From the human T2T-CHM13v2.0 reference genome, Homo sapiens, in assembly GCF_009914755.1 (NCBI RefSeq), contig NC_060941.1: a DNA stretch of 64,000 nt; one strand, 5' to 3'. Below the pieces are notes generated by a model. The model saw nothing but the letters and a program-made list of their open reading frames with translations, had not been told where the DNA came from and did no database searches. This document shows positions 4,360 to 55,012 of this stretch, piece by piece. The position numbers and the translations under genes were made by a program. How positions within the stretch are numbered: the first letter of the stretch is position 1; each line of letters begins with the position of its first letter.

Positions 4360-4590
4360 AGCAGTGTTTCTAACCTTTTTTTCTCTTGCTCCCCTAAGAA
4401 GCCTTTATAGACATTTTAGTTCCTAATTATCCCCCACCCCCATGAAAATTTAATACCACAGATATACCATATATCTGTTTAAGTACTATGGCCAGAAACT
4501 ATTGTAATATCTGAGATTTTTTTTTTCTCCTAAGAACCAGTTTTACCCCTTGAGAGCAGTATCACTCTCAATGAGAATGTATGTTCTGAA
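4360..4590. mobile_element. Probable hAT/MER-type non-autonomous DNA transposon remnant
   Basis: Starts with a CAGTGTTTCT terminal-like motif typical of hAT-Charlie MITEs; family not determined. Confidence 0.4.
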
Positions 4591-5097
4591 AGTATCTTGA
4601 ATTTTTTTTTCATTGTTGTACTGCCGAATCCTATAAGTAGTATTTTACTTATACTTTAACACATGTATGAGTAATATTGGTCTATAATTTCCCTCCCTCA
4701 CCTCCTCAGTATTATATTTATTCTGTAGTTTTGTAGGCAATTAGGAGCTACTGAAGGGTTTTATGCATGGGAATAATCAATTTTTTTAAAGAGGAATACA
4801 TCCCTTGACATACTGTGGAAAATAAATAGAAGATGAGACTGGTGGCATAGGTTTTTAAAGATGCCATTGTAATAATAAAGGTATTAGTTAATGCAGTAGT
4901 AAATTCAAGAAGTATTTGGAAATAAAATGAGCAGAAATTGATAATCATATGCATGCAAGAGGTAAGGGAGAAGAAATAGCCCAGCCTTACTCTCAAGCTT
5001 TTAACTTCTGTTATAATTTGACTATTAGCTTCAGCTATATTATTTAATTCTGAAACAATAATTCTTTCTTTTAAGTAAATTATGCTTTGCCTTACAG

Positions 5098-5381
5098 AAA
5101 GTGGCAAGGTTAGCATTCAAGAATTTATGACTAAATTATCCGATATATTGACAATTCCTAAAGCTGCAGGTAAGTTTTATTTAATATGTACTTATTGCCC
5201 AGATCTAGAAAGGCAAGCAGTGGTTTACATGTTAAAAACAATACAGGATTCGATAGTTAAAGCACAGGTAAGTAAGAAGCAATACAATATGAATATAAAA
5301 CAACACAAGATTAGTTTACATAACTTCTGTTTGAATTCTAAGGCAAATATTGCTAAGCTTAACCCAAACTCAAAATTTTAG
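5098..5381 (+). CDS. EFCAB13: Terminal coding exon of EF-hand calcium-binding domain protein 13 (rest of gene is upstream, outside window)
   Basis: Acceptor TTTGCCTTACAG|AAAGTGG at 5097/5098 (phase 1); open frame ESGKVSIQEFMTKL...NPNSKF* ending TAG 5379-5381. GKVSIQEF fits the second half of an EF-hand loop. Gene name from recall of the protein C-terminus and the neighbouring MRPL45 pseudogene. Confidence 0.85.
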
Positions 5382-5569
5382 GTAGTCTTACTTGATAGTG
5401 CTAGAAAATTACTAGATTATATATTATTCAGTATGCATATTTGACTTCTGAAATTATTAGAAAATAATTTTTAAAACTTTTGACAAATCCAGTAGAATTT
5501 TTATCACTATCTGTTATGTTCTCATGTATCTTCAGCGACTCTCTTGATCACACTTTTTAAACATTCATG

Positions 5570-5850
5570 CTTTTTGAGGTATAATGTACATATGGCAAAA
5601 TTCACTCTTTTTAGGTATACAGTTCTTTGGATTCTTAAAAATAATGTAATGTAACCCTTACTATACACAACATATAGACTATATTATCCCCCAGAAGTCT
5701 CTTATGCCCTTTTGGTAATCCATTTCTTCCTCTACCCTGAGCCCCTGGCAACTACTGATTCATTCTTTGTCCCTCTAGTTTTGCCTTTTGTGGAATATCA
5801 TGTAAATGATTAAATATGAAGTGGTTTGAGTTTGGCAGTCATTGCATGCA
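5570..5850 (-). mobile_element. Old L1M 3'-end fragment within the EFCAB13 3' UTR region
   Basis: TTGAGGTATAATGTACAT...CCCTGGCAACTACTGAT...TTTTGCCTTTT is typical antisense L1M 3' end. Confidence 0.7.
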
Positions 5851-5951
5851 TATACCTTGAATTTACTTTGTTTATACTCTCATTTATACTACCAACCCTC
5901 CCTAGAAAAAATGGATTCTGATTGGTTCTGGTTGCAGTATTACAAATTCCA

Positions 5952-5957
5952 AATAAA
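5952..5957 (+). terminator. Candidate polyadenylation signal for EFCAB13
   Basis: AATAAA ~570 nt after the stop codon, followed by GT-rich sequence; cleavage site not determinable from sequence. Confidence 0.45.
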
Positions 5958-6020
5958 GCTTTATTTGAGGACCCCCAAAGTTGAGGTACTGATCCCTTTG
6001 GCTGTTTGTTTCCCACTAAG

Positions 6021-6021
<1 letters not shown>

Positions 6022-6070
<49 letters not shown>
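6022..6070. repeat. (TG)n microsatellite
   Basis: Direct observation. Confidence 0.97.
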
Positions 6071-6071
<1 letters not shown>

Positions 6072-6390
6072 ACCAACATTTTGTTGAATCAACAATGTAC
6101 CATTAGTAAAGCTGCTGTGCAAAATTATCCCTCAGATCTGTTCTAAACTTACAGTTTAACTGATTTTATTGTCCTCACCTAAGGTTATACAATTCATTTT
6201 TTGGAAGAAAATACTAGGACATTAAATCAAGATGGTTACTTTTGCTATTTTGCTGAAGTTCATATTTAAATATAAATGAAGAAGTTAATCTACACATTAG
6301 AAGTGTTTTAAAAAATGTTTAAATTGATACATAATTGTACTTTCATTTATACATTGTATAATAATCAAATCAGTGTAAGTAGCAACCCAT

Positions 6391-6825
6391 TGTGAACCCC
6401 AAATATCAGAAACAGGATTCAATTAATTTAGAAAGCTTATTTTTGCCAAGGTTAAGGGTGTGCCCATGACACAGACTTAGGAGGTCCTGACACATGTGCC
6501 TAAGGTGGTTGGGGCACAGCTTGGTTTTATACATTTTAGGGAGACATGAAATATCAATCAATACATGTAAGATGTACATTGGCCAGAAGGGCAGGGGAAA
6601 GACAATTTGAAGCGGGGAATTTCCTTATGGGCAAATTGTGAGGGAGTTAATGTAGCTTCTTCTTTTATTTTATTTTATTTTATTTTATTTTATTTTATTT
6701 TTTATCTCTGTTGCTATCTCCTTTAGGAATAGAATGGGAGGTAGGTTTGCCTGACACAGTTCCCAGCTTGACTTTTCCCTTTGGCTTAGTGATTTTGGGA
6801 TACCGAGATTTATTTTCCTTTCACA
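6391..6825 (-). mobile_element. ERV1 solo LTR (MER4-like) containing a (TTTTA)n tract
   Basis: TG...CA termini, 4-bp TSD CCAT (6387-6390, 6826-6829), MER4-like internal motifs (TTTGCCAAGGTTAAGG, TTATACATTTTAGGGAGACATGA). Confidence 0.8.
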
Positions 6826-7129
6826 CCATCAGCTCAAACATTTATCATTTCTTTGTAGTGAGAACATTCAATACATTATTAACTATAGTCACCCTTTAAT
6901 TTTTAAATAGACAAATACAAATTGTATGTACTGTATATTGCATGATTCAAAATATGTACATACATTGTGGAATGGCTAAATTGAATTAATTAACGTGTTT
7001 TACCTCACATACCTATTTTTGTGATGAGAACACAAAATCTTTTCTCTTAGCAATTTTCAAAAATATTATACATTGTTATTAACTGTAGTCACCATGTTAT
7101 ACAACAGAGCTCTTAACCTTATTGATTTT

Positions 7130-8844
7130 CTAATATTTTATTAAAGATTTTTGAGAGTATGTTTATGAGGGATATTGGTCTATAGTTTTCTTTTAGTGTC
7201 TTTTCCAGATTTTTTTGTTAGGGTTATGCTGACCTCATAAAATGAGTTGGGAAGTCTTCCCTCCCTTTTTTATTTCTGGTTGAGTTTGTGCATTAGTTGG
7301 TTCTAATGCTGCTAATAAAGAAATATCTGAGACTGGGTAAGTTATAAAAGAAAGAGGTTTAACTGACTCACAGTTCCATATGGCTGGGGAGACCTCACAA
7401 TCATGGTGGAAGGCGAATGAGGAGCAAATTCACCTCTTACATGGCGGCAGGCAAGAGGGCTTGTGCAGGGGAACTCCCATTTATAAAAACCATTAAATCT
7501 CGTGAGACTTATTCACTTATGGGGACACTGCCCCCATGATTCGATTATGTCCACTGGCCCCACCCTTGACACTTGAGGATTATTACAATTCAAGGTGAGA
7601 TTTGGGTGGGGACACAGCCAAACCATATCAGTTTATGATTATGATTAGGATTATTGTTTTCATTAAATGTTTGGTAGAATTCACCATCTATTCCTGAAGA
7701 TTTAAAATATTGAGCTCTATTTATTCAATGGATATATAGCTCTTTAGAGCCTCCCTCTTCTAAATCTTTCTGTAGTTGTCACTATATCTTTCTGTAAGTA
7801 TCATAAAGAAGAAATATACTTTCTATAAGTGGAACTGTGTCTTGTCAAAGTTTATTTTATGTAATTTGTCAGGTTTATTGTCATGAAATTGTTCATAATA
7901 TCCCCTTATTATCCTTTTAATGTCTATAGTGTGATGTCTTATTTTTCATTCCTGATGTTTGTAATTTCTATTTTCTCTTTTTTGTTTGTAACCAGTCTTG
8001 CTAGGGAGTTATTAAATTTATTAATAATTTTACACAAATGGTGATTTTGTTAATTTTTGTTAACTTTTCTCTTTTGTTTTTCTTTTTCATTGGTTTATAT
8101 TTTTATTGTTACTATCATTTGGTCTTTGTTTACTTTGGGCTTCATTTACCCTTCTTTGCTAGCTTGTTAAGATAGAAGCTTAGATAACTGATTTTTATCC
8201 TTTTCTAACATTAAAACTGCAAATTTTCCCCTAATATGTCTTTCATTGCATCTCACAAACGTTGTTATGTTGTGCTTTTTATCATTTACTAAAATATTTT
8301 CTAATTTACCTAATGATTTTTTCTTTGAAGTGTAGGTTATTTAGAAATGTAGTCTTTAATTTCCAAATATTGGGACATTTTCTAGATATCTTAATTATTA
8401 TTGATTTCTAATTTATTTATTTCTTTTAGGGAGAGGGTCTTGCTTGTTGCTCAGGCTGGAGTGCAGGTGGCATGATCATGGTTCACTGCAGCCTCCAACT
8501 CTTGGGCTCAAGCAACCTCTTGCCTCAGCCTTGCAAGTAACTGGGACTACAGGCACACACCATTACACCTGGCTAATTTTAAACATTTTTTCTGTAGAGA
8601 TGGGGTCTCATTTTGTGTTCCAGGCTGGTCTTGAGCTCCTGGGCTCAAGCATTTCTCCTGCCTTGGCCTCCCCAAGTGTTGGGATTATAGTTGTGAGCCA
8701 CTGTGCCAAGCCTGATTTCTAATTTAATACATTTGGCCAGAGAATATATTTTGCATGATTTAAATTCTTAAATTAATTAAGATTTATTTATAGCCCTGGT
8801 TATGGTCTATCTAAGTGAATGTTCCATGTGTACCTGAAAGAATG
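7130..8844 (-). mobile_element. Old L1M ORF2 fragment, interrupted by a THE1 LTR and an AluJ, ending abruptly at ~8844
   Basis: Antisense L1 motifs (ATATTGGTCTATAGTTTTCTTT, CCTCATAAAATGAGTTGGGAAGT, TATGGTCTATCT...GAATGTTCCATGTG). Confidence 0.8.
7289..7630 (-). mobile_element. THE1 (ERVL-MaLR) solo LTR
   Basis: Ends in GGGGACACAGCCAAACCATATCA (reverse of THE1 5' end); contains GACTCACAGTTCCA..GGCTGGGGAG. Confidence 0.9.
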
Positions 8845-8947
8845 GCTTGAACTCGCGGGGAGGAGGTTGCAGTGAGCCAAGATTGCACCACTGCACTCCA
8901 GCCTGGGCAACAGAGTGAGACTCCATCTCAAAACAAAAGAAAAAAAT
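8839..8947 (+). mobile_element. Alu right-arm fragment fused directly to the L1M
   Basis: AGAATGGCTTGAAC...GAGACTCCATCTC-A-tail; no TSD seen and the L1M does not resume afterwards. Confidence 0.85.
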
Positions 8948-11284
8948 TTTTTGGTTAAGAGTTTAGATAAAGGAAAAAACTCCATTTAAATGTTTCTGTG
9001 AAGAAAACCATAATGGATTACATGGCACAACAACAGTTTCAAAAAATTAAAACCAATTTGTAAACATTAATCATCACGGTTACTTATATGCCCTTAAAAA
9101 TGATCTATATGCTCCTAGTGTCACATAAGACACGTTAATCTAGGAGTCTACTTCACTCAGACTTTTTGCAACTAACATGCATTCTTTGTTTCTTCATCAC
9201 TGTGGGGAAGAGGTGGTACATACAAAAGGTTCTTGACATAACCCTATAAAAAGATGATCACATGGTGTATTATCTGGGAATTTAAATGGTCACAATTCCA
9301 GGATACGTCAATGCTATCAACTTTAAAAAATAAATAAATTTGACCTATAATGGGGGGGCCAGCCGGGGGTAGGGGAGAAAGAGGCAAACTGTGTATCCTG
9401 GAACTTTGTAACTGGAAAAAAATTAGCAGCAGCAGCAGCCTGATCAAAACTGCAACTTCTTGCCCACCTGGACAACCCAGCTCTCTTTTCTAGAAATTAG
9501 CATCTATGCTCAATTTCTAATAATGGAATGGTGCCTAGGTACTCATGTTTGTCTAGGTGAAAACAGCTTCTAAATCCAGGTGCTTACATCAGAATTGCTC
9601 TCCTGGAAATTTAGGACTGAGACATTGAGTCACTTACCTGTAGGGTAACCTGTAGAATCAGAGATTTCTCAAATTTGACCTGTCTTATTTTGATACCATG
9701 TTTCCCAGCAATGTAACCTCCCCTTAAGTATCAGTTTTTGTAAAATCTCCTAATCAATTTCTTATCAGATTATATTATATAAATACCTATCATCTAGAGT
9801 ACTCCAGAAGCCAAATGAACATTAAAAAAAAAATACTGAGATAGGGCCAGGCATAGTGGCTGAGTGTAATCCCAGCATTTTGGGAGGCTGAGTTGGAAGG
9901 ATAACTTGAGGCCAGGAGTTCATGACCAGCCTGGGCTATATAGCAAGACGCTGTCTCTCTACCAATTCTATAAATATTAAAAAAAAAAAAAACTGGGTGT
10001 GGTGGTGGCACTTGTACTCCTAGCTACTTGAGAGGCTGAGGTGGGAGGACGGATTGATTGAGGCCAGGAGTTTGAGGCTATCGTGAACCATAATTGTCCA
10101 CTGCAGTCCACCCTGGGGTGACGGACTAATAGACTCTGTCTCTAAATAAATAAATATTACAAAAAGAAAAGCACTGAGATAGGTAATGTTGGTAAGTGAG
10201 ATTATAGATTTTAATCTCATGAACAATTTTAAGTTAGCTACTATACACTCCCATTTCCAAAAGTTTAGATTGGAATGTTTGCTGCCTTTGGTAGCTAAGA
10301 GAAAAGAAATAACAATGAGGGATATTATAGTGCCATTCTTCCACAGTCCTTATCAAATAAATAGGCCTTTGAGTCTTGGAATTGTTGAGAGTAAGAAAGC
10401 AAATAATATATAAAGTTGACAAGCACAAAAGACACAAAGAGGCCAGGCATGGTGGCTCAAGCTTGTAATTCCAACACTTTGGGAGGCCAGGGCAGGGGGG
10501 TTGTCTGAATCCAGGAGTTCAAGACCAGCCTAGGCAACATAATGAGATCCCATCTCTACAAAAAATAAAAACAAAAGTAGCCAGACATGATGGTGCATGC
10601 CTGTAGTCCCAGCTACTCAGGAGGCTGAGGTGGGAGGATCACTTGAGGCTGGGAGGTCGAAGCTACAGTGAGCTGTAATTGCACCACTGCACTCCAGCCT
10701 GGGGAACAGTAAGACCATGTTGGAAAAAAAGAAGAGGGGAGGGGAAGGGGAGGAGAGACCACAAGAAACAAATATAATGAATAATAGTTTACTATTCCTG
10801 AGAAAAAGAGAATACCAAATGTAAGAGAATGTGTAACTAGGGTTGGGGAGAGCGGGCTGGAGAGAGACAGCACACAAAGACAACAGAGAGAAGTCAAATA
10901 GGAAATTTCAAAATGAGAATCAGCTGATGTATAAAAAAGAGCAAAATAATTTTTTTACCGATAGAACTGCAAGATTTAGCTTTCCAAAATGATTCAATTC
11001 TCCAGAAAAGAAAAATTAATTTAAGCACTCATCTAAGTAACTAGTATAAAGTGCCAAGCAAAAATAAACATTTATTAGATATAGACAAATGCAAATATAT
11101 TCAATGCTTTCGTACAAATGTGAATATCTGGGGGCCTTATTATCATCTTGTTAATATATGTCAGTGAACAATTTGTAGACACAAGACTTGTTTTACAAAC
11201 TGGGTAATATGTTCCATGAACGTAAGCCAGGAATTTAAAACTTAGTGTCTATCTCTTCATTCTAAGAAATGTTTCAGCTAACTC

Positions 11285-11286
<2 letters not shown>

Positions 11287-11336
<50 letters not shown>
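11287..11336. repeat. (TG)n microsatellite
   Basis: Direct observation. Confidence 0.97.
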
Positions 11337-11339
<3 letters not shown>

Positions 11340-12739
11340 ATGTTTTCTATCTCATGTGGTGGTGATGAGCCTAGTACTTATATTCTTGAAATGAAAATCC
11401 CATTCTGATATTTCTTCCTCCCTCTTCTCTGTCACATTAAACTGATCACCAGGCTGGTCAGCTGAAGCTCTTACATATTACCGAATGTCTCTGTCCCGTT
11501 GTTCCTACTACTTCAGATCCTCATTCCAGTGTCTGGGACACTGTCAGAGTCTAAATAGATTCTAGGTCTCTTGTCTCGTCTATCTTCCATCTCCCAATCC
11601 TCCTTCCCCCAATCCATTAGAATGACAGACCTAAGCATATCCTTTCTGAACATAAAAACCCTTCAATAACTTTAGGGATAAACTTTAGGCTCCTTAACAT
11701 TATGCATGAGGTGCTTGAACATCTGACCCTTGACAGTCCCTCTCAGCATTCTAGCACATTCAGGGTCCTAACAATACCACCCTTCTCCCTGCCACCATCC
11801 CAAATCCCTCCCCCTGCTCACCACTCTCCTTGTTATTTCCCACTTCAAAGCTTTTGCTCCTTCAATCTGTAAAATTAACAGCCACTCATGTGTTCCTTCC
11901 TTTCTCCTCTCTTCACAGCCAGCACCTGGAGGTTTCTTACTCTTAGGAAAAACTGCGACCTTTTCTAAGATACCTCCTCCCTCTTTCCTCAGTCCTGTTA
12001 AAGGTTAGGTGGACATTCACTGTACCTCGAAAATCCTTGCACATATTATTGTTTAACAATCACCGATTGATGCACGTCTATCCACCATACAGACCTGGTA
12101 CATATAAGAGGACATGCCAGAAATGAGGACGAGATCAATGGGCAGATAGATGAAATGTTTAGCTTCCTTATTTACCTGAAACCTCATTTTTGGAAGTCCT
12201 AAAACCCATAAAGAATATTTGGTGCTTTCAAAAATATCTTTTACTTGGCCAGGTGCAGTGGCTTACACCTGTAATCCCAGCATTTTGGGATACTAAGGCC
12301 GCTGGATCACTTGAGGTCAGGAGTTCGAGCCCAGCCTGGCCAACATAGCAAAACCCCATCTCTACTAAAAATACAAAAATTAGCCGGGCATGGTGGTCCC
12401 GCCTATAATCCCAGCTACTCAGGAGGCTGAGGCATGACGAGAATCGCTTAGACCTGGGAGGCAGAGAGGGTGCACTGGGCCAAGATCACACCACTGCACT
12501 CCAACCTGAGTGATGGAGTGAGAATCTGCCTTTAAAAAAAAAAAAATTAGCTGGGTGTAGTAGTGGATGCCTGTAATCCCAGCTACTCGGGGGCTGAGGC
12601 AGGAGAATCGCTTGAACCTGGGAGGCGGAGGTTGCAGTAAGCCAAGATCTCAGCACCGCACTCCAGCCTGGGCGACAGAACGAGACTCCACCTCAAAAAA
12701 AAAAAAAAAAAAAAAGTCCTGGCCAGGCGCAGTGGCTCA

Positions 12740-12987
<248 letters not shown>

Positions 12988-13768
12988 TTAATTGCTATCC
13001 ACTACTATTACTTTTGGAAAAAAATAAGGGGGAGACAGGTTAGCAATTTCTAAGCCTTCCATTAGGTTTAATCTTACAATTAGATGACATCATGTTTTTT
13101 GCTGTTTTTGTTTGTTTCTTTGGCCTATGATCATCCTTCCTATACTTATAAATAATCTTTACTTCAGGGCTATCCAATAAAGAAGGACTATTAAAAAAGC
13201 GTATATATATATATATATACATATATACACATATACATATGATATACTCATCATCTGCTAACTACTCTCTATGCAAATTGTAGCTTTCTAAAATGAATGC
13301 TTCCTTGACTCTGAAGAATACAAGCTTCTACCCCAAAAAAGTTCACAAGTCCCTTTGTTGCCACAATCTTCACATTTCTGAAAACTTATTAAAAGGTAAT
13401 TTTAACAAAACATGTCAGTGAAATGATGAGTTAACACGTTACAGAAGAAAATATTAGCAGTCAAAAATATAAAAATAGGATACAATGATTTAAATTGTAC
13501 AAAAACTGGCCACTGGCCAGGGATGCTGGCTCACGACTGTAATCCCGGCACTTTGAGAGGCTGAGATAGGAGGATTCCTTGAGACCAAGAGTTAGAGACC
13601 ACCCTGGGCAACATAGGGAGATCTTTTTCTATAAAACATAAATAGACCAGGTGCACTGGCTCACACCTGTAATCCCAGAACTTTGGGAGGCAGCCAAGGC
13701 GGGCAGATCACTTGAGGCCAGGAGTTCAAGCCCAGCCTGATCAATGTGGCGAAAACCTGTCTCTACTA

Positions 13769-14200
<432 letters not shown>

Positions 14201-16157
14201 AGTATTTTTAAAACTGGCCATTACATATTTAACGACATGTAGAAAATTTAACAGGTCAATACAGTAAATTCTTTGCTATTTAGATATACAATAAAGATAT
14301 TCTAGTAAATTTTTTCCCAGTACTCACAAAATTTCATTTTTTTCTAAATTCCACAATGTTCTAGCCACATAGGAGTATTTCTTATTCTCTGAACATGCCT
14401 ACCTGCCACCTCTTCCCTTTGCACCTGCTACCCTAGGTTACGTCACTTTCTCTGTCTGGAATTTTTAGTTGATCATTTTCTGCAAAGGTCAAATGCCTAA
14501 TTATTCTGCAAAGCCCTAGAAGCTCTTTGTATGCCTTACTCAATTCCTGAGACAAGAATAATTTCTCATTATTTGCCCATAATACTCCATTCAGCCTTAT
14601 TATTATGTAACATATATTTTAATTTTCATACATTTATTGACTTGTCTTCCTACTTGAGGAAACCCCCTATTTTATTTATCCTTGAATTCCTGGTGTCTAA
14701 CACAACACTTGATACAAAGTAGGTCCATAGTAAATGCCCAGTAAATAAATGTTCCCAAACTTATCCTTTATTACCTACCATCCATTAAGGACTGATGTCT
14801 TCAAGCCCATTTTCCAATCATTCCTGTCATTTCAGAATTGCATGCCCCATTATTAGGCATAAAGAATTTATATGAACAAAACCTTATTAACTTTTTTTAT
14901 TTTTTTGAAACAGGGTTTCACTCTGTTACCTGGGCTGGAGTACAGTCACACAATCATAGCTCACTGCAGCCTTGACCTCCCAGGCTCAAGAGATCCTCCC
15001 ACCTCAGCCTCTCGAGTAGTTGGGAGGGACTACAGGCGAGCACCACCATGCCCGGCTAATTGTTTTTCTTTTTTGCAGAGGTGGGTTCTCAGAATGTTGC
15101 CCAGGCTGGTCTGGTACTCCTGGGCTCAAGCAATCCTCTCACTTCAACCTCCCAAAGTACTGAAATTATAGGTGTGAACCACCACACCCGGTCCATTAAC
15201 TTTCTTTCTTTTTTGTTTTGTGTTTCTTTGCTTGCTGTTCTTTTCTGAGACAGGGTCTTGCTCTGTTGCCCAGGTGGGGGTGCAGGGCACAGTCACGGTT
15301 CACTGCAGCCTTGACCTCTGGGCTCAAGGGACCCTCCCACCGCAGCCTCTTGAGTAGTTGGGACTACAGACACATGTGCCTCCCCACACCTGGCTAAATT
15401 TATTCTTTTTTGTAGAGACAGGGTCTTGCTTGTTGTCCAGACTGGATTCAAACTTCTGGGCTCAAGCGATACTCCTGCCTGGGCGTCCCAAAGTGCTAGG
15501 ACTATAGGCATGAGCCACTGAGCCTATTCTAACCCTAAGTAGAACAAAACAAATCATCAACAACAAAAATCCGACAAACATAAAGCAATCACATATAAGA
15601 AAAGCTGTAAAAAGGAAAGAAATAGAAAGAAGAAAAAAATAAACTTGATAAACAGATACACCACGCTTCTGGAAGGAAGGATTCAATATTGTAAAAATAT
15701 ATTCATCCCTAAAACAGTATTTCACTGTAACTCTAATATAGTCTAAATTGTGTGCTTATTAGTCCTAATGTTCATCTAGAAAAATAGATGACAATATTTG
15801 TCTTACCATATACTAAAATGTATATAAAGCTATAATAATTTAAAATAGTGTGGCACCAGGATAAAAATAGACACACCAATGGAACACATAAAAAGTCCAG
15901 AAACATACTCAAGTATTCAAGAATTTAGTAATGATTCAAACAAGATTTCAAATCACAATGGAAAACATAGATTATTCAGCAATAGTGTTGAAAAAGTTGA
16001 CTAACCAGGTGGGAGGGGAAAGTTGGGCACGTATCTTACCATATTCTAAAATTAATTCTAGGCTAATAAAATATTTATATCTAAATAATTCCTTCTTTGG
16101 TCTACCCTCGCTCCTTTTCTGCTTCAACACTTTAGTCTTAAAGCCATGAGATGGGGC

Positions 16158-16256
16158 TAGGCATGGTGGCTCATGCCTGTAATCCTAGCATAGGCATGGT
16201 GGCTCATGCCTGTAATCCTAGCATAGGCATGGTGGCTCATGCCTGTAATCCTAGCA
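16158..16256 (+). repeat. Perfect 33-bp x3 tandem repeat of an Alu 5' end
   Basis: TAGGCATGGTGGCTCATGCCTGTAATCCTAGCA at 16158, 16191 and 16224. Confidence 0.97.
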
Positions 16257-16779
16257 TTTTGGGAGGCCAGAGCAGGCAGTTCACTTGACTCAGGAGTTCA
16301 AGACCAGCCTGGGCAACATGATGAAATCTCAACTCTACAAATAATACAGAAAACTTAGCTGGGTGGGATGGGTGCACCTTGTAGTCCCATCTACTTAGAG
16401 GGCTAAAGTGGAAGGACTGCTTGAGCCCAAGAGGTCAAGGCTGTAGTGAGCCAAAACTGCACCACTGCACTCCAGCCTGGGTGACAAAATGAGACCCAAA
16501 AGCCATGAGGTGAGTTCAAGCATAGTAATTATCCATGAGGGGGTCATGGATATTGGAGGGGGCAGTACAATACTAGTATAAGAGCCTGAATAAGGCTGGC
16601 TTCCCTAAGGGGTTGGGGATAGGGGTGAGGACAATCTCAGAGCAAGGTGAAAAGATCAACAAAAGTTGAAGCAGTGAACTGAGGCTGAATATCAAATCCC
16701 AAGAGGGGTGAAAAGGACTGGCATGCAGGAAAGTAGCAGCAACCCTGAACTGGGTTGGAACAGCATCTGCCTTAGGTGG

Positions 16780-19360
<2,581 letters not shown>

Positions 19361-20215
19361 AGGTTTTTAAAAATGAACTTCCAAAGCACTAAAAAAAAAG
19401 TGCATTAATATAAAGATTTTCTTTGCACGGCATCAAAGGCAGAAACAATAAAGAGCATTTGCATAAATTACCTCAAAAATGTAAACTTGTGCATTAGAAA
19501 AAATTAACCTGCTAGAATCCCAATAACAAAAACTATGAAGACATAATAAAATTAAACACCAAACGTTAAACTATGGGAAAAAACACACACAGCAAATATA
19601 CGAGACAAAAGAATATGATCTCTAATATAAAACACTTTGTAAAAAAAATTATAATATTAAAATAAACAGATATGGAAGGTCAATTAACATACATGAATAA
19701 TCTTCAAAAAAAAACTTTAAAATAACCAACCTTACCAGTACTCAAAGAAACTCATTCAAACATTTTAATATTTTTTTTACTAGAAAGAATAGCAAAGATT
19801 TTTTTAAGGGTAACACAGTGTACCTAACAAAATATAGAGTTATGAGCAATCTCACATACAGCTAATACAGTGTAAGTTCTAGAGGACAATTTCACACAAT
19901 GTATTTCTTGAAGCTTCCAAAATGTTCACACACTTTTACACAGATGCTAGCAGTGTATACTAAATGCCAGACACCAAACTAGGCCCTTCAACCACAAAGG
20001 GTTGCTTAATTAAATTTGCAGTTTGTTGAATCTCATGATATTCTGTATTACAGACCAAGTATCTATTAAAAATACAGCAGAAACACAATTTATTGACACA
20101 CAAAAGATGCTGTGTAATTTTCAAAAGCAAACAAAAAATATAAGCAAAACGATTCAACTTTTTCGTAAGTATATACTATAAGCAAAAATACACAGAAAAA
20201 ACCCCGTCTCTACTA

Positions 20216-20464
<249 letters not shown>

Positions 20465-20956
20465 TTAAAATCTTAAAGCTGGCTGCAATTTCTTCCACAG
20501 TTGGAATGTGTACCTTCAATTAAGTGGTAAAACTGTATTTAAAGGCACATTGGGTAATGGTGAAACCTAAAATGCAGAGGAGAATAAAACAATAACATAC
20601 TAAATGAAGAAAAACATACAGGAAAAAAGCAAACATTAAGTTTTTTTTTTAAGGCCAACAATAAAAACCGTATCTTGGGGTACAAATAACTTGAGGGGGG
20701 GGACAAGTAACATTCTAATATAGGACTGTTTTTTAAAAAAGAATGTATGATACATTGTAATGAATATTATGCAAAATAATAATTAATTCAAATTTACCAG
20801 ACTCTTGATACCTGAAAGAGCAAAAGAGGTCAGTAATTCATAAAGGGCCAATCTGTAAGGATTAAAATATCCTGTAAATCGTAGAATACTAAATACCTAG
20901 GTTACTATGAAAGGTAACACAGTTTTGCTTGCTTTGTACTCCTGTGACCTTAGTAA

Positions 20957-21325
<369 letters not shown>

Positions 21326-21340
21326 TAATATCCACTGTAC

Positions 21341-21450
21341 CTTATTACAATGATCATGTGGAACAGACTGTAAAACAATTGGTTCCATTGTGGAAACACT
21401 GGCAAATTGTACCTCCGGAATATACAGAGCACACATCTCATGGGCCCAAC
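21341..21450 (-). pseudogene. Orphan 110-nt MLLT10 (AF10)-like exon encoding part of the PZP domain (Zn-knuckle end and linker)
   Basis: Reverse strand: TTTATTTTTAG|GTTGGGCCCAT...TGTAATAAG|GTACAG; phase 1 to 0; translates GWAHEMCALYIPEVQFASVSTMEPIVLQSVPHDHCNK versus recalled AF10 GWAHVVCALYIPEVQFANVSTMEPIVLQSVPHDRYNK. VSTM/QSVP are AF10-type rather than AF17 (VLTM/QYVP). Neighbouring MLLT10 exons not found. Confidence 0.88.
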
Positions 21451-21948
21451 CTAAAAATAAATAAATAAATGTCATCTTTTCAGTTTTATCAAAAGCAAAT
21501 TAACATCATTAACTTCCTTAACAGATCCCTACAATGTCTATTGAAACAAATGCACAACAAGGACATTAACAAATTCTCATTGCTGTCTTACTTCCATTGC
21601 TTGAGAATACTCAAACCACTACTAAAAAAAAGCATTCTTAATCATTTCCCCAGTTATGATGTACACAAGCATAAATAAAGGGAAACATTTATAAATTCAG
21701 TTCTTGGCACTAACACTTCTTATACAGGCAGACTAAATATTCAGATCAACACTACTAATGACAACCACTATAAAAGGAGGTTTTTAAAGTTTAATACTTA
21801 TGATAAAATTTAATTATCTTAATCTTTTTAAATGTCAACATGAAATTATTTTTATCTTGGTGTCAATATTTTTAATATTAGTAATAATCATTTCACTATT
21901 TTAATTGGACAAGTTTTAAATTTGGTATTAAATATATATATTTTATGA

Positions 21949-22053
<105 letters not shown>

Positions 22054-22088
22054 TGACTGAAGGTATTAAGGAGCTGATGTGATAGTGA

Positions 22089-22522
<434 letters not shown>

Positions 22523-22670
22523 TGACAAACTCAGAGGCCCCACAGTACAGGGATGTACATTCACAAACAACCAAGAGAAAAAGAGAACAAGTAAACCCCT
22601 CTCCTCCTTTCAGATGCAACACTGAATGGCAAACCAGGGGTGAGAATACACTAAAAGTACATAGACCCTC

Positions 22671-23010
<340 letters not shown>

Positions 23011-23449
23011 TCAAACTCTGAAATTTGATGAAGGTAATCCGAAATTACAACCCCCAAGGCACGAAGCAGATGCAAATATACATCCTCTCTAAAAGAAAAT
23101 AGTATCATTTTGGCTACAAATTATTTCTACCTTTTTTTTTTTTTTTTTTTTTTTGAGACAAAGCCTTGGTCTATGGCCCAGGCTGGACTGCACTGGCGTG
23201 ATCTCGGCTCACTGCAACTTCCTCCTTCCAGTTCAAGCAATTCTCCTGCCTCAGCCTCCCAAGTAGCTGGGATTACAGGTGCCCACCACCACACCTGGCT
23301 AATTTTTGTATTTTTAGTAGATATGAGGTTTCACTGTGTAGACCAGGCTGGTCTCGAACTCCTGACCTCAAGTGATCCACCAGTCTCAGCCTCCCAAAGT
23401 GGTGGGAATACAGACATGCGTCACCACACCCAGCCTAAAATTTCTTAAT

Positions 23450-28340
<4,891 letters not shown>

Positions 28341-28350
28341 TGGCTGGGCA

Positions 28351-28723
<373 letters not shown>

Positions 28724-29299
28724 CTACTCAGGAGGCTGAGACAGGAGAATCACTTGAATCCAGGAGGTAGAGGGTGCAGTGAGCTGAGATCATGCCATTG
28801 CACTCCAGCCTGGGTGACAGAGTGAGACTCTGTCTCAAAGACAAAAAACAAAACATATGAGACCAGCAGTTTGACTAGGTTAAAACATGGCATGAAAGTA
28901 CGTAATGATTAGGGAATCAAACAACTTCTGAAATGAAAATTATTATAACAAGGCTGGGTGCAGTGGCTCATGCCTGTAATCCTAGCACTTTCGGAGGCCA
29001 AGGCGGGTGGATCACTTGAGGCCAGGAGTTCAGGAGTAGCCTGGCCAACATGGTGAAACCCTGCCTCTACTAAAAATACAAAAATTAACCAGGTGTCGTG
29101 GCACAGGCCTGTAGTCCCAGCTACTCCGGAGGCTGAGGCACAAGAATTGCTTGAGCTGGGGACGGGGAGGTTGCAGTGAACTGAGATGAGGCCACTGCAC
29201 TCCTCCAGCCTGGGCAACGGAGCGAGACTCGGTCTCAAAATAATAATAATAACAATAATTTTTTAAAGTAACACCTGATTTTAGGAGAGGCAAAACATA

Positions 29300-29880
29300 A
29301 AAAAAGAAAATTATAATATTTGAAAGTAGAAAATCAATGGAAAGATTAAACAGATGAATAGTATGAAAGAATAATTTGTGACCTAGAAGATAGCCCCAAA
29401 GAAGTTACCCAGAATGCACAGAGACAAAGAAATAGAAAGCATGAAAGATCATGGGTCATGGCCGATAAAGCGCAAAGATCCAACGTATATCTGGAGTTCC
29501 AGAAGGAGGAAATAGAGAAAATGGGGCAGAGGCCATATTTGAAAGGTTATGACTGATAATTTTCAAGAATTAATGAGACCCAAATTCTTAAAGAAACTCA
29601 GTGAACTGCAATCCAGAAAAATAAAAAGAAATCCACATCAAGACACATCAGAGTGAAACTACAGAAAACTGAAGAGAACGATCCTAAAACAGCTAGAGAG
29701 AAATATATCTTACCTACAAAGAAACAAATGAAAATGACAGCAGATTTCTCAACACCAACGGAAGAAGCCAGAAGATAGCAGAGTAACACCCCTAACATCT
29801 GAAAGGAAAATCATTGTCAAACTGGAATTATATCCTAGCGAAACTATTTTTCAAAAGAGATCTTGAAACAATGATATGTT
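29300..29880 (+). mobile_element. Ancient L1/HAL1-type ORF1 remnant
   Basis: GGAGTTCCAGAAGGAGGAAATAGAGAAAATGGGG...CAGATTTCTCAACACCAAC...TATATCCTAGCGAAACTAT. Confidence 0.7.
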
Positions 29881-30514
29881 TTTCAATTATTGGATGATGG
29901 AAGATACCAGCAGCTAGGAGTTCACATACCCTTTAGGTAATTCTTGAGGTTTCTAATGAGAAATTCCGAAGAACTGGGGTCTGTAGAACTGGCAAACACT
30001 CATAGGCTGAGAACATAAAAACACTAAGGAAACAATGACTCTTAACCATAACCACCATCAACCCCACCTCAATTTTTAATCTCAGTAGCCCTTTGGTTAC
30101 ACTAGAGGTATATGGTTCAACTTTGCAGATCTTGGGAGAGAACATTTCTGCTCCATTTTCTCAGGACTACCGCCCCAAAAGGCTTTCCTAGGCCCCTCAG
30201 CTCCTAGGAGGAGTAGTTAATATGATTGGTCAGAGTCCAAGGCATTCCTTGGGCCTTATTTATTTCTCTTTTGTTCTCTTATAGAGGCCTCCTCTGCAGT
30301 CTGTATCATGTCAGTTTCAGGGAGAAGAGAGAAAACATCGAATATAACAGAGCTGCATGGGGGAGGTACTGGATTTCCATTCCTGTGTATACCTCTCTGT
30401 AGCTCCCTCGATCTGGAATGCCAAAGAGAAGAGGGCACCCAGGGACCTAAGCATTACTTGGTCCCTGGATCAATACCATAATAATAACCTCGGAACCTCA
30501 TCCATGTCTTCTAA

Positions 30515-30766
<252 letters not shown>

Positions 30767-31776
30767 TAGCTGAGATTACAGGTGTGCACCACCACACCCA
30801 GCTAATTTTTGTATTATTAGTAGAGATGGGGTTTCACCATCTTGGCCAGGCTGGTCTTGAACTCCTGGCCTCAGGTGATCCGCCCGCCTTGGCCTCCCAA
30901 ATTTCTGGGATTACAGGCATGAGCCACCATGCCCGGTCAATTAACTTACCTTCTCTAGATTCACTTTCCTTATCTCAAAATGGAAGAAAAATGTGGAATT
31001 CACAGGGAATTGAACACTAAATGTTTTGATGAAATCACTTAGCACTCCAAAGAGGCTAAATGTTTATTGTATTAGTATAGAAACAGAACAAATTGCAAAA
31101 ACAAAAAGTGGACCCAAATACACACTGAATTCATGATATGATAAAACTAGCATTCCAGATCAGTGGGAAAAAGATGGCTTATGCAATAAATGTAATGAGA
31201 CAACTGGTTAGACTTAAAAAAAAAAAAAAAAAACCCAGATCATTACTTTATGCCAAAATAAACTACATATGTATCAAAAATTGAAGACAAAATATGAAAC
31301 CACAAAAGTACTAAGGGAAACGTGGATGAATATTTTTCTAATCTTGGAGTGAAAAAGGCCTTTTAAAGCACGTGTTACCAAATTCAGAAGCTATAAGGAA
31401 AAAATTTTTTATAAATTTGGCTACATAAAAATTCAAGACTTAGACCTTTTTAAAAGACATAAAAATCACACCTTTAAATGAAGGAAAAACATTCTGTTTT
31501 TGAATAGGAAGAATTAATATCATAAAGGTGCCAATTCTTTTATTAACATATAAATGTAACATATGAATCCAAATTAGCATATAAGTGCAATTAGAATCAG
31601 AATACATCAATTTTTTTAAAAACTGGACAGTAATTTTAACATTCATATAGAAGAATAAATGAGATGGTCAAGAATATTTGGAAAGGAATACCAACAAAGG
31701 GGACCTGTCTTATCATATATTAAACTTAAAATGAGGCTATGGTAAATAAAACAGTATGATATTGGCACAGGAATAG

Positions 31777-32184
<408 letters not shown>

Positions 32185-32592
32185 TGACAACAAAGTGAGA
32201 CCCTGTGTCTATAAAAATTTTAAAAATTAGGCCGGGTGTGATGGCTCATGCCTGTAATTCCGGCATTTGGGGAGGCCAAGAGAGTAGATCACGGATCACT
32301 TGAGGCCCAGAAGTTTGAGACCAGCCTGAGCAGCAAGGCAAAACCCCATTTCTACAAAAAATAAAAACAAATAAGTTACCCGGGCGTGCTGGCATGTGCC
32401 TGTAGTCCCAGCTGCCCAGGAGGCTGAGGTGGGAGGATTGCTTGAGCCCAGAAGTTTAAGGCTGCAGTGAGTTATGATCATGCCTTTATACTTCCAGCCT
32501 GGGCAACAAAATGAGACTCCATCTCTATTTTTTAAAAAAAGAAAAACAGAAACCCAAAACTGATCAAACTACATGGCAATCTAATAAACAAC

Positions 32593-32963
32593 TGATATGG
32601 TTTGGCTGTGTCCCCACCCAAATCTCATCTTGAATTGTAGTTCCCATAATCCCCACATGTTGTGGGAGGGACCCAGGGGGAGGTAATTAAATTATGGGGG
32701 CAGTTACCCCCATGCTGTTCTAGTGATAGTGAGTGAGTTCTCACGAGATCTGATGGTTCTATAAGGGGCTTTTCCCCCTTTGTTCAGCACTTCTTCCTGC
32801 CACCAGGTGAAGAAGGATGTGTTTGCCTCCCCTTCCACTATGATTGTAAGTTTCTTGAGGCCTCCCCAGCCCTGTGCAACTGTGAGTTGATTAAACCTCT
32901 TTCGTTTATAAATTACCCAGTCCTGGGCAGCCCTTTATAGCAGCATGAGAACAGACTAATACA
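32593..32963 (+). mobile_element. THE1 (ERVL-MaLR) solo LTR
   Basis: TGATATGGTTTGGCTGTGTCCCCACCCAAATCTCATCTTGAATTGTAG...GAGAACAGACTAATACA. Confidence 0.93.
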
Positions 32964-33098
32964 AGGACCAAGATGACTTTTTATTTATTTATATTTTATT
33001 TTATTTATTTTATTATTTTATTAATTTATTTTTTACTTTATTTATTTTATGGTGCTAGCATAATTGAGTATACAACTAGAAGAAAATAAAGCTAGTTC

Positions 33099-34200
<1,102 letters not shown>

Positions 34201-35120
34201 GCAAATTTGGGGCAATCAGCCACTATGTCATATAATGTAAGATAATATAACTTGAAATGCATTAGATATCTAAGTATAAAATAATAAAAATAAAAGTGAG
34301 GAGGTGTGTATGAAGAGAACTCGATTAAGAGGAATCATAAAGTGACTATATGAAAGTTAAGTTTTTTCCATCGTGAAAGCGTAAATGAAATTAAGAAAAA
34401 AACAATAGATTGGGAAAATATTTGTAACACATACGAATGAAAGCCTGTAACATATAAATAGTTTCTACAAATTAATTAGAAAGAAATTAATGACAAATAG
34501 AAAAATGGACAAAGGCTACAAATAGGCAAATTGCAGAAGAGGAAATTCAAATAGTTAATAAACATATAAAAAGATACTGCTCAGCCTCATTCAGGAAAAA
34601 GCAAATTAAAACAAAAAAGAGATGCCACTCTTCAATAACTGGCAAAAATTATAAAGAGTAACCATATCTGCGCCAGGCACGGTGGCTCATGCCTGTAATC
34701 TCAGCACTTTGGGAGGCCAAGGGAGGCAGACAACTTTGAGCTCAGGAGTTCGAGACCAGCCTGGACAACATGGTGAACCCCATCTCTACAAGAATTACAA
34801 AAATGGGCTGGCCATGGTGGCTCATGCCTGTGGTCCCAGCTACTTGGGAGGCTGAGGCTGGAGGATCACTTGAGCCAGGAAGTGGATGTTGCAGTGAGCT
34901 GAGATCATGCCACTGCATTCCAGCCTGGGTAACAGAGCGAAAGAAACCCTGTCTCAAACAAACAAATAAAAAGAGTAATCATACCTTATACTGAAAGCAT
35001 AAACAAAGGACACTCATACATGCTGGTGGGAATATAAATTGCTACAGCCAATTTGGAAAATAACATTTGAGCTAGCAGTGTGTTTGGGAAATCTATCCTA
35101 CAGAAATAAAAGCATCAATA

Positions 35121-36135
<1,015 letters not shown>

Positions 36136-36224
36136 TTCCTGGGCTTACAGGCTTGAGCCACTGTGCCGGGCCATATTATGTAATTTTTAAAGCCAGTGTT
36201 ATTGTCCTCATCTGTTAGTTCAGA

Positions 36225-37878
<1,654 letters not shown>

Positions 37879-37929
37879 AGTCTAGGGAAGAGTCCATGAT
37901 ACATCGACATTACAGATGCAAACGTATGA

Positions 37930-38226
<297 letters not shown>

Positions 38227-38244
38227 TGAGCCACCGCGCCCGAC

Positions 38245-38760
38245 CTGATCAATCTCTTAAAGAGAATCCAGCTTTATTACTGCCAGTACATGACCAAACT
38301 GCTTCTATATTTGCCCTGGGAAAAATGGACAAAGGGAAATACTGTTAATTAATGAACAAAAACTTTGCAGAAAATTAGCCAGTGTTTAATTTTCCAAAAC
38401 TTCCCTCTGTTCAGTAGATACCAGCTACTGATGACTACATATACTAGGTAAAGTTTAAAATTAGGAAATGCTGATTTCTCACATTATGAATTTCTAAATC
38501 CTGTGAAGAAAAGCTTAAAGAGCTTCTGAATATACAGAAGTTCCATTTAAGGACTAGGTCCTCCTTGTAGATGCATCAAAATATTACAAATTCCAAACTG
38601 AGACTTAATTCTCAAATGTGTTTTACTTGTTCTAAAACAATCTGTCCACAAATATAAAAATATAAGTAATAAATTATTATTTTCCTACTGTGAGAATCTT
38701 TAGTGTGAAAAAGTATTCTATAAAAGAATTTTTTTAAAAATAAATTATATAATAAAAAAT
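38245..38760 (+). other. Non-repeat AT-rich segment resembling an mRNA 3' UTR end (ITSN2/GOLGA6-GOLGA8-like)
   Basis: GAAGAAAAGCTTAAAGAGCTTCTGAATATACAGAAGTTCCATTTAAGG...TTGTTCTAAAACAATCTGTCCACAAATATAAAA...AATAAA matches my recollection of the ITSN2-derived 3' UTR in GOLGA6/8 genes; not verified by search. Confidence 0.5.
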
Positions 38761-38929
38761 ATGTACAAAATGGGTTACAGAGGACAGTTTGTATACACAT
38801 AGATAAAGATATGGAAGGTAACAACATAACTGTTAACAGGCCAGGCACGGTGGCTCACGCCTATAATCCCAGCACTTTGGGAGGCAAGGTGGGTGGATTG
38901 CTTGAGGTCAGGAGTTTGAGACCAGCCTA

Positions 38930-39148
<219 letters not shown>

Positions 39149-39630
39149 TCACAGTAGTTACTACTGAAAAATGGGATTTAGGATGAACAAGATAATTTTA
39201 CATTTTTAAAAATTCCCTACTAATTTGAATATTTTTATAATAAACACGTATAACTTAAGAATAAAAGTAAAAAAAAAGAGATCATATTCAGATAGAGTCT
39301 GAGTTTTCATTAAACTGTTTAATACATGAGTTCAATATTTGTCTAAAAAAGCAATCTCTAAAATTATGCATCATAAGGTTGGATGCGGTGGCTCATGCCA
39401 TAATGAAGTGGGAGGGAGAGACATATAGGAGCAGAGCGTTTGTATATTATTGAAACTAAGTTGATATTATTCAAACTAGGTTGAACTAGCTACCGCGCCT
39501 GGCTGTGTTTCTCTATTTCTGCAAAAACCACTGTTGAGGACAGGCGGTGGCTCATGCCTGTAATCCCAATGCTTTGGGAGGTCGAGGCGGGTGGATCATC
39601 TGAGGTCAGGAGTTTGAGACCAGCCTGGCC

Positions 39631-43310
<3,680 letters not shown>

Positions 43311-43604: not shown

Positions 43605-43745
<141 letters not shown>

Positions 43746-45724: not shown

Positions 45725-45859
<135 letters not shown>

Positions 45860-54862: not shown

Positions 54863-55012
<150 letters not shown>

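What the first reader, a model, noticed from the sequence alone, without database searches (positions are those of the whole stretch)
21341..21450. Orphan MLLT10 (AF10) PZP-domain exon with intact splice sites far from its parent gene
Seen: a 110-nt minus-strand exon with a T-rich AG acceptor, AAG|GTACAG donor and an open frame GWAHEMCALYIPEVQFASVSTMEPIVLQSVPHDHCNK. Known: this is AF10/AF17 PZP sequence with AF10-type residues; MLLT10 is on 10p12 while the rest of the window looks like 17q21. Inference: exon-exact boundaries with intronic flanks imply a DNA-level duplication rather than a retrocopy. About five substitutions in 37 normally conserved residues suggest relaxed selection, though the HxxC zinc ligands survive.
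Basis: partly seen in the sequence, partly recalled or inferred. Interest (0 to 1): 0.85.

Follow-up and report, generated by a model that had tools for sequence, protein, structure and literature searches.

The report
Duplicated MLLT10 exon reused by MRPL45P2
A single exon of the leukaemia gene MLLT10, copied with its introns from chromosome 10 to chromosome 17, now drifts neutrally and serves only as a spliced exon of the noncoding pseudogene transcript MRPL45P2, an ordinary product of segmental duplication.

Summary
Window 21341-21450 (minus strand) is a 110-nt copy of one MLLT10/AF10 PZP exon. It keeps an identical acceptor and donor, and 31 of its 36 codons match AF10.

It is a DNA-level duplicate, not a retrocopy. 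Window 8839 to about 28680 is colinear with 13.9 kb of MLLT10 intron and exon DNA on chr10.

The copy did not come straight from chr10. A larger copy of about 54 kb lies at chr17:38.84-38.90 Mb (17q12) and contains the whole window block. The window differs from that copy by 2.1% and from chr10 by 6.5%. The window is therefore most likely a secondary sub-copy.

The exon is not unannotated. It is exon 5 of RefSeq MRPL45P2. That transcript uses a duplicated MRPL45 promoter and exons 1-4, then the MLLT10 exon, then an Alu-derived last exon.

The AF10 frame is not translatable in that transcript. All five amino-acid changes are derived, and the exon diverges as fast as its introns.

Verdict: a real feature of a well-known kind, and of low interest.

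The parts
21341..21450 (-). MLLT10 (AF10) PZP-exon copy, 110 nt, which is exon 5 of MRPL45P2
   Evidence: It differs from the chr10 exon at 9 of 110 nt, and 31 of 36 residues match AF-10. Splice sites are identical to MLLT10. The exon coordinates equal those in the hub's RefSeq table.
8839..28680 (-). MLLT10-derived duplicon. It is colinear with chr10:21621965-21608107 and with chr17:38848637-38868309. The right end is approximate and lies in an Alu tail at 28650-28690.
   Evidence: chr10 matches, 88.5-93.7% identity; 17q12 matches, 96.2-98.3%; breakpoint alignments; 13386 sites aligned three ways.
11322..15673 (.). 4352-bp segment present in both chr17 copies but absent from chr10. It is Alu-rich and carries the last exon of MRPL45P2.
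   Evidence: gap in the chr10 colinearity. (only the window itself and chr17:38851127-38855503 match at full length).
14883..15534 (-). Terminal exon 6 of MRPL45P2, largely Alu sequence. An AATAAA lies at 14896-14901 in an Alu A-rich tail.
   Evidence: Hub table. (acceptor ...ctacttag). (Alu-like matches over 14892-15525). (hexamer 13 nt before the annotated 3' end).
21042..21252 (.). Alu insertion 88 bp downstream of the exon's donor. It is shared with the 17q12 copy and absent from chr10.
   Evidence: query 399-510 matches only dispersed repeats; the chr10 match stops at base 398. (gap 21041/21253). (contiguous with 17q12).
28500..39400 (-). Spacer duplicon related to chr17:20731160-20747819 (17p11.2), 88-93% identity
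39399..57400 (-). Partial MRPL45 duplicate: promoter and exons 1-4 (57089-57315, 55710-55887, 54863-54990, 47693-47791). It lacks the 3' Tim44-domain exon.
   Evidence: 99% to chr17:39159918-39169805. (97.2% as far as parent 39177884). (no match beyond that point). (the parent's Tim44 exon at 39185029 lies outside the duplicon).
54916..54925 (-). 10-bp net insertion in MRPL45P2 exon 3 that frameshifts the MRPL45 reading frame
   Evidence: alignment to the parent, which has a continuous ORF. (ORF ends at transcript nt 500)..

Best explanation
The exon is a neutrally evolving relic inside a mosaic segmental duplication.

A stretch of MLLT10 of about 46 kb (introns plus at least two PZP exons) was copied from 10p12 to 17q12. 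I estimate this happened 25-35 million years ago.

Much later, roughly 8-11 million years ago, a 19.8-kb sub-block with one exon was copied from 17q12 into single-copy DNA just past the 3' end of EFCAB13 at 17q21.32. Both donor breakpoints lie in Alu elements. That sub-block now sits next to a 17p11.2-derived piece and a truncated MRPL45 duplicate in the same orientation.

The MRPL45 copy has a promoter and exons 1-4 but no 3' end. Transcripts from it therefore run on and splice to the next good exon, which is the MLLT10 exon with its unchanged acceptor and donor. They then splice to an Alu-derived terminal exon with an AATAAA signal. The product is the chimeric noncoding RNA MRPL45P2.

The AF10-like peptide is not made. 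In the MRPL45 frame the exon gives a stop after three codons. In the AF10 frame, stops lie just outside the exon on both sides.

Shown here: the homology map, the divergences, the splice sites and the frames. Inferred: the direction and dates of the duplications, and run-on splicing as the reason the exon is used.
For: Copy number and map:
- The unique part of the region has three copies in the genome: chr10, chr17:38.86 Mb and the window.
- The window block is colinear with chr10:21608107-21621965.
- The 17q12 copy spans chr17:38843263-38897618, matching chr10:21626395-21580360, and contains the whole window block.
- At both window edges, homology between 17q12 and chr10 continues where the window diverges.
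- The left flank, window 4200-8838, is single copy.

Divergence:
- Over 13386 sites aligned three ways there are 131 window-only, 132 17q12-only, 728 chr10-or-stem and 16 three-way differences.
- That gives p-distances of 2.1% (window to 17q12) and 6.5% (window to chr10).

The exon itself:
- Its substitution rate, 9 of 110, does not differ from the block rate of 6.5% (binomial p 0.44).
- The changes split into 5 replacement and 4 silent.
- All 5 replacements are derived when MLLT6 is used as outgroup.

The transcript:
- All MRPL45P2 introns are GT-AG.
- The MRPL45 ORF is broken by a 10-bp insertion.
- The AF10 frame is open for only 39 codons, transcript nt 629-748.
- AATAAA lies 13 nt before the annotated 3' end.

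Outside evidence: passages of bioRxiv 10.64898/2026.01.14.699559 date the neighbouring NPEPPS/MRPL45 duplication between the same two loci to 8-9 million years ago, at 98.2% identity.
Against: - Direction is inferred from containment only. The window copy could once have been as long as the 17q12 copy and been trimmed later.
- No other primate genome could be searched, so the dates rest on rough rate scaling. Gene conversion between the chr17 copies could make the second event look younger than it is.
- Use of the exon in RNA rests on the hub's RefSeq annotation (NR_033934.1). No expression data were examined here.
- The 4352-bp extra segment has no identified source. Whether it is an insertion on chr17 or a later deletion on chr10 is open.
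- The 30 splice-site bases are unchanged in all copies. At 6.5% divergence this happens by chance about 13% of the time (my arithmetic), so it is weak evidence either way.
Confidence: 0.88

Rival explanations
1. The block was copied directly from chr10 to 17q21.32, or the 17q21.32 copy is the older one and 17q12 was copied from it, with the window copy trimmed later at both ends.
For: The two chr17 copies have equal private branch lengths, 131 versus 132, which does not show direction. Both window breakpoints lie in Alus, and Alus can also mediate later deletions.
Against: Direct independent origin from chr10 is excluded. The chr17 copies share the 4352-bp segment and the Alu at 21042-21252. 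They are 2.1% apart but 6.5% from chr10. The reverse direction needs two extra truncations. The left junction places a half Alu directly against single-copy DNA.
Confidence: 0.1
2. The exon is kept for an RNA-level function, for example as the exon that stabilises or destabilises (through nonsense-mediated decay) a functional MRPL45P2 noncoding RNA.
For: Splice sites are identical in all three copies. MRPL45P2 is a curated RefSeq transcript (hub table). It turns up in eQTL and GWAS gene lists in 12 papers, of which I saw only the search listing.
Against: The exon diverges as fast as the surrounding intron DNA. The 17q12 copy has equally intact splice sites. Conservation of 30 bases is expected by chance about 13% of the time. 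None of the 12 listed papers carries MRPL45P2 in its title or abstract; I did not open them.
Confidence: 0.05
3. The exon encodes a functional AF10-like zinc-binding peptide within a chimeric protein.
For: The frame is open over 36 codons, and the H and C of the HxxC motif are retained.
Against: The AF10 frame is closed by stops just outside the exon in the spliced transcript. The MRPL45 frame is out of phase and already broken upstream. The piece covers Pfam PF13832 positions 21-55 of 109 and scores 21.3 bits against a cut-off of 27. There are five derived replacements. With nine substitutions, my rough estimate is that the frame stays open by chance about two times in three.
Confidence: 0.01
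4. It is a processed pseudogene (retrocopy) of MLLT10 or a fragment of MLLT6.
For: None beyond the protein similarity.
Against: Intron homology extends for kilobases on both sides. MLLT6 (chr17:39570847-39570954) gave no DNA match among the 54 reported, and its peptide differs at the AF10-type positions.
Confidence: 0.005

Closest known systems
NPEPPSP1-TBC1D3 fusion transcript at 17q12 (bioRxiv 10.64898/2026.01.14.699559; passages read)
   Same: It involves the same pair of loci (17q21.32 and 17q12) and the same general mechanism. A partial gene duplicate with its promoter drives a transcript that splices into exons of a neighbouring, unrelated duplicon. The divergence is similar: 98.2% identity there and 97.9% here.
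   Different: That fusion keeps long ORFs and is proposed to drive TBC1D3 expression in brain. Here both parental frames are broken and only one relic exon is borrowed. The preprint does not mention MLLT10 (0 occurrences).
CHRFAM7A and HYDIN2 type chimeric genes made by segmental duplication (named in the same preprint's discussion)
   Same: Partial duplicates are placed next to each other by duplication and spliced into one transcript.
   Different: Those retain coding capacity or a dominant-negative function. MRPL45P2 is annotated as noncoding, and I found no usable ORF across the junction.
MLLT10 (AF10) PZP domain, PDB 5dag, 5dah, 7mju
   Same: The exon corresponds to chain residues 100-135 of 5dag, and 31 of 36 residues are identical.
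   Different: Only about one sixth of the 208-residue construct is present, with no neighbouring PZP exons in the window. It cannot form the domain.
MLLT10P1 / MLLT10P2 pseudogene symbols
   Same: They are named MLLT10 pseudogenes. The symbol MLLT10P2 occurs in one paper's table.
   Different: I could not establish where either lies. That MLLT10P1 is a processed copy on chromosome 20 is recalled, not tested. Whether MLLT10P2 is the 17q12 copy found here is unknown.

Membership tests
Segmental duplication (non-processed partial gene duplicate) | Homology includes intron DNA and is colinear with the parent locus | tested here: met
   colinear matches from window 8839 to 28448 against chr10:21621965-21608107.
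Segmental duplication (non-processed partial gene duplicate) | At least 1 kb at 90% identity or more (the usual database criterion, recalled) | tested here: met
   13386 aligned sites at 93.5% identity by substitutions; individual BLAST matches at 88.5-93.7% with gaps counted.
Segmental duplication (non-processed partial gene duplicate) | Mosaic of duplicons with junctions in Alu repeats | tested here: met
   (both breakpoints in Alus). (neighbouring pieces from 17p11.2 and MRPL45, and a single-copy left flank).
Processed pseudogene / retrocopy | Introns absent, with exons joined as in the mRNA | tested here: not met
   there is a single exon with kilobases of intron on each side. The next MLLT10 exons lie outside the window block.
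AF10/AF17 PZP-domain protein (Pfam PF13832 zf-HC5HC2H_2) | Score over the family cut-off and coverage of the whole extended PHD finger | tested here: not met
   21.3 bits against a cut-off of 27, covering model positions 21-55 of 109 only.
AF10/AF17 PZP-domain protein (Pfam PF13832 zf-HC5HC2H_2) | Translatable open reading frame in a transcript | tested here: not met
   the AF10 frame is open only over transcript nt 629-748, and the MRPL45 frame stops three codons into the exon.
AF10/AF17 PZP-domain protein (Pfam PF13832 zf-HC5HC2H_2) | Zinc-ligand residues retained | not tested
   The H and C of HEMC are present. That they are ligands is recalled from the HC5HC2H pattern; I inspected no structure.
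Chimeric transcript created by segmental duplication | Promoter and 5' exons come from one partial gene copy and downstream exons from another duplicon, joined by canonical splice sites | tested here: met
   (exons 1-4 derive from MRPL45). (exon 5 derives from MLLT10). (all introns GT-AG).
Chimeric transcript created by segmental duplication | The transcript is observed in RNA | not testable with these tools
   This rests on the hub's RefSeq row NR_033934.1 (BestRefSeq). No RNA data are available here.

The most novel reading that the evidence does not exclude
The relic MLLT10 exon may be what turns the truncated MRPL45 duplicate into a stable, spliced and polyadenylated RNA. That African-ape-specific chimeric RNA, or the roughly 113-residue MRPL45 N-terminal peptide it could still encode, might then have a regulatory effect at the NPEPPS/MRPL45 loci. 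Such an effect could underlie the eQTL and GWAS signals that list MRPL45P2.
Probability: 0.05. Interest if true: 0.45.

Novelty: new member of a known kind. Interest (0 to 1): 0.18.

Why it matters
The finding mainly serves as a tidy worked example. It explains the last two exons of an annotated pseudogene transcript. It also shows that MRPL45P2 is assembled from four sources: MRPL45, a 17p11.2-like spacer, MLLT10, and Alu sequence.

There are two practical points. First, two chr17 copies of an MLLT10 PZP exon, 92-93% identical, could attract mis-mapped reads or capture probes aimed at MLLT10. Second, the 17q12 and 17q21.32 duplication blocks now being studied for TBC1D3 and NPEPPS also contain an older MLLT10-derived duplicon that could help date and order those rearrangements.

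It does not open a new biological question.

Tried and rejected
- **More MLLT10 exons in the window.** I looked for other MLLT10 coding exons in the block by comparing MLLT6 reading frames with 100 kb of chr10. The neighbouring PZP exons are at chr10:21605427-21605486, 21631475-21631582 and 21634007-21634057. All lie outside the window block. The first of them lies inside the 17q12 copy only.
- **Same boundaries in both chr17 copies.** at first suggested that the two chr17 copies share the same ends. Comparing 17q12 directly with chr10 corrected this.
- **A fourth source for the extra segment.** I searched for a source locus for window 11322-15673 and found none.
- **The rest of MRPL45 in the window.** The 10 kb at chr17:39180001-39190000 has no match in the window.
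- **Literature.**
  - MRPL45P2 occurs in 12 papers; I saw only the search listing, and none has the name in its title or abstract.
  - MLLT10 with 'segmental duplication' and 17q12 gave 0 papers.
  - TBC1D3 with MLLT10 and duplication gave 4 papers whose titles concern other topics; I did not open them (one search covers MLLT10P, this search).
  - The library lacks most subscription journals and all supplements of bioRxiv preprints, so a description elsewhere is possible.

Full report
**1. The observation**

On the minus strand, window 21341-21450 is a 110-nt segment. It is preceded by a T-rich tract ending in AG and followed by GTACAG. Read from its third base, it gives WAHEMCALYIPEVQFASVSTMEPIVLQSVPHDHCNK without a stop.

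The equivalent segment at chr10:21614458-21614567 translates to a peptide that is 36 of 36 identical to Protein AF-10 in PDB 5dag, 5dah and 7mju. The window peptide matches 31 of 36.

The three genomic copies have identical sequence over the 20 bases before the acceptor and the 10 bases after the donor.

**2. What the surrounding DNA is**

A 510-base query around the exon found three places in the genome that share its non-repeat part: the window itself, chr17:38860974-38861482 (98%) and chr10:21614258-21614655 (94%, query bases 1-398). The other 51 of the 54 matches cover only an Alu at query bases 399-510. The MLLT6 exon at chr17:39570847-39570954, located by Pfam PF13832, was not among the DNA matches.

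I fetched 100 kb around each of the two other copies and compared them with the window. The window is colinear, in reverse orientation, with chr10:21621965-21608107 from window 8839 to 28448, at 88.5-93.7% identity per match. The interruptions are a 4352-bp segment (11322-15673) and several Alu-sized gaps.

This is intron-and-exon genomic DNA, so the copy is a segmental duplicate and not a retrocopy.

I used MLLT6 reading frames as probes against the chr10 stretch. The neighbouring PZP exons of MLLT10 lie at chr10:21605427-21605486, 21631475-21631582 and 21634007-21634057. All are outside the part copied into the window. The window therefore holds exactly one MLLT10 coding exon.

**3. Route of the copy**

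The 17q12 locus matches the window only over 8839-28449, at 96.2-98.3% identity. That first looked like two copies with identical ends.

Comparing 17q12 directly with chr10 changed the picture. The 17q12 homology runs from chr17:38843263 to 38897618, matching chr10:21626395 down to 21580360. That is about 54 kb on chr17 and 46 kb on chr10, and it contains the whole window block.

At the window's left edge, the 17q12 and chr10 sequences continue together through a full Alu. The window has only the last 114 bases or so of that Alu, joined directly to unrelated DNA. That unrelated DNA is single copy in the genome.

At the right edge, the three sequences stay together to the end of an Alu at about window 28650-28690. 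After that, 17q12 and chr10 continue together and the window diverges.

The two chr17 copies share the 4352-bp segment, which has no other full-length match in the genome. They also share the Alu at 21042-21252, which chr10 lacks.

Over 13386 sites aligned three ways, the differences break down as follows:

| Class of difference | Sites |
|---|---|
| Private to the window | 131 |
| Private to 17q12 | 132 |
| On the chr10 or shared-chr17 branch | 728 |
| Three-way | 16 |

These give p-distances of 2.1% (window to 17q12) and 6.5% (window to chr10).

The simplest history has two steps: first 10p12 to 17q12, then a later sub-copy from 17q12 to 17q21.32.

For dating, I scaled against a preprint on the neighbouring NPEPPS/MRPL45 duplication between the same two loci. 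It reports 98.2% identity and an age of 8-9 million years (passages read). On that scale the second step falls at roughly 8-11 million years and the first at roughly 25-35 million years. These dates are inferences. No other primate genome could be searched here.

**4. The rest of the mosaic**

- Window 28500-39400 matches chr17:20731160-20747819 at 88-93% identity.
- Window 39399-57400 matches the MRPL45 parent locus at chr17:39159918-39177884, at 97-99% identity and in inverted orientation.
- Nothing matches beyond that point.
- The parent's Tim44-domain exon at chr17:39185029-39185160 lies outside the duplicated part.

So the window carries the MRPL45 promoter and first four exons, but not the gene's 3' end.

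**5. How the exon is used**

The hub's RefSeq table lists the exon as exon 5 of 6 of MRPL45P2 (NR_033934.1). I spliced the six annotated exons in a script. Every intron is GT-AG.

Exons 1-3 match the parent with 5 substitutions, plus a 10-bp net insertion in exon 3 at window 54916-54925. That insertion frameshifts the MRPL45 reading frame, which is continuous in the parent. The frame ends at transcript nt 500.

The original MRPL45 frame resumes downstream of the insertion as a short ORF from an internal ATG at transcript nt 505. It reads into the MLLT10 exon as Leu-Gly-Pro-stop.

In the AF10 frame, the open stretch is only 39 codons, transcript nt 629-748. It is closed by stops just outside the exon on both sides.

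The last exon (14883-15534) lies in the chr17-only segment and is mostly Alu. It ends 13 nt after an AATAAA in an Alu A-rich tail.

My reading is as follows. The truncated MRPL45 copy lacks its own 3' exons and polyadenylation site. Transcripts therefore continue through about 26 kb of other duplicons. They then use the first well-formed exon in the right orientation, the MLLT10 relic, followed by an Alu-derived terminal exon. The splice-site and frame facts are shown. The causal account is inferred.

**6. Selection**

The exon differs from chr10 at 9 of 110 bases. This does not differ from the block-wide rate of 6.5% (binomial p 0.44). Five changes are replacements and four are silent.

At all five replaced positions, MLLT6 agrees with MLLT10 or carries a conservative variant (F for Y). 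The replacements therefore arose on the chr17 lineage. Three are shared by both chr17 copies (V to E, R to H, Y to C). Two are private to the window (V to M, N to S). The 17q12 copy has one private change of its own (V to D).

The two chr17 copies have equal private branch lengths.

All of this fits neutral drift. An open 36-codon frame after nine substitutions is unremarkable. My rough estimate is that it stays open by chance about two times in three.

**7. Comparison with what is known**

The mechanism is the standard one for mosaic segmental duplications that yield chimeric transcripts. The closest case is the NPEPPSP1-TBC1D3 fusion described for the same pair of loci. That paper does not mention MLLT10.

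Full-text searches gave the following:
- 12 papers mention MRPL45P2. I saw only the search listing, and none has the name in its title or abstract.
- No paper combines MLLT10, 'segmental duplication' and 17q12.
- One paper's table uses the symbol MLLT10P2 without a location.

I could not consult the public segmental-duplication tracks. The chr10/chr17 pair almost certainly appears there, given its length and identity.

I therefore rate this as a new member of a known kind, of low interest.

**8. Limits**

- No RNA data, primate genomes or genome-browser tracks were available.
As a result, the MRPL45 parent locus was sampled in pieces rather than mapped end to end.
- The zinc-ligand role of the retained H and C is recalled, not tested.

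Noticed in passing
L027 region, chr17:38870871-38871033 (17q12 copy): The 17q12 copy also keeps the upstream MLLT10 PZP exon (peptide RCELCPHKDGALKRTDNGG). Its exon sequence and both splice sites are identical to chr10, although the flanking intron has diverged. That locus therefore holds two consecutive splice-competent relic exons.
   Followed up: partly
window 22671-22963: This Alu is present only in the window copy. It is absent from 17q12 and chr10, and the subject coordinates overlap by about 17 bp, which suggests a target-site duplication. It would be an insertion younger than the second duplication.
   Followed up: no
window 28343-28541: A 92-bp unit is repeated 2.2 times at 99% identity inside the Alu at the right breakpoint. 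The repeat is absent from 17q12 and chr10.
   Followed up: partly
window 11322-15673: This 4352-bp segment is found only in the two chr17 copies. It could be an insertion after the move to chr17, or ancestral MLLT10 intron DNA later deleted on chr10. Which one is unresolved.
   Followed up: partly
window 39399-57400: Identity to the MRPL45 parent is uneven: 99% over the promoter and exons 1-4 but 97.2% over 39399-47293. The second figure counts gaps, so part of the gap between them may be a counting difference. If real, this could reflect gene conversion or two events. The preprint treats the promoter region as part of an 8-9-million-year-old NPEPPS duplication.
   Followed up: no
window 28500-39400: An 11-kb spacer between the MLLT10 and MRPL45 pieces is related to chr17:20731160-20747819 (17p11.2) at 88-93% identity. 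It is a third duplicon in the mosaic.
   Followed up: no
window 54916-54925: A 10-bp net insertion, apparently a local tandem duplication, lies in MRPL45P2 exon 3. It is the lesion that disables the MRPL45 reading frame.
   Followed up: yes
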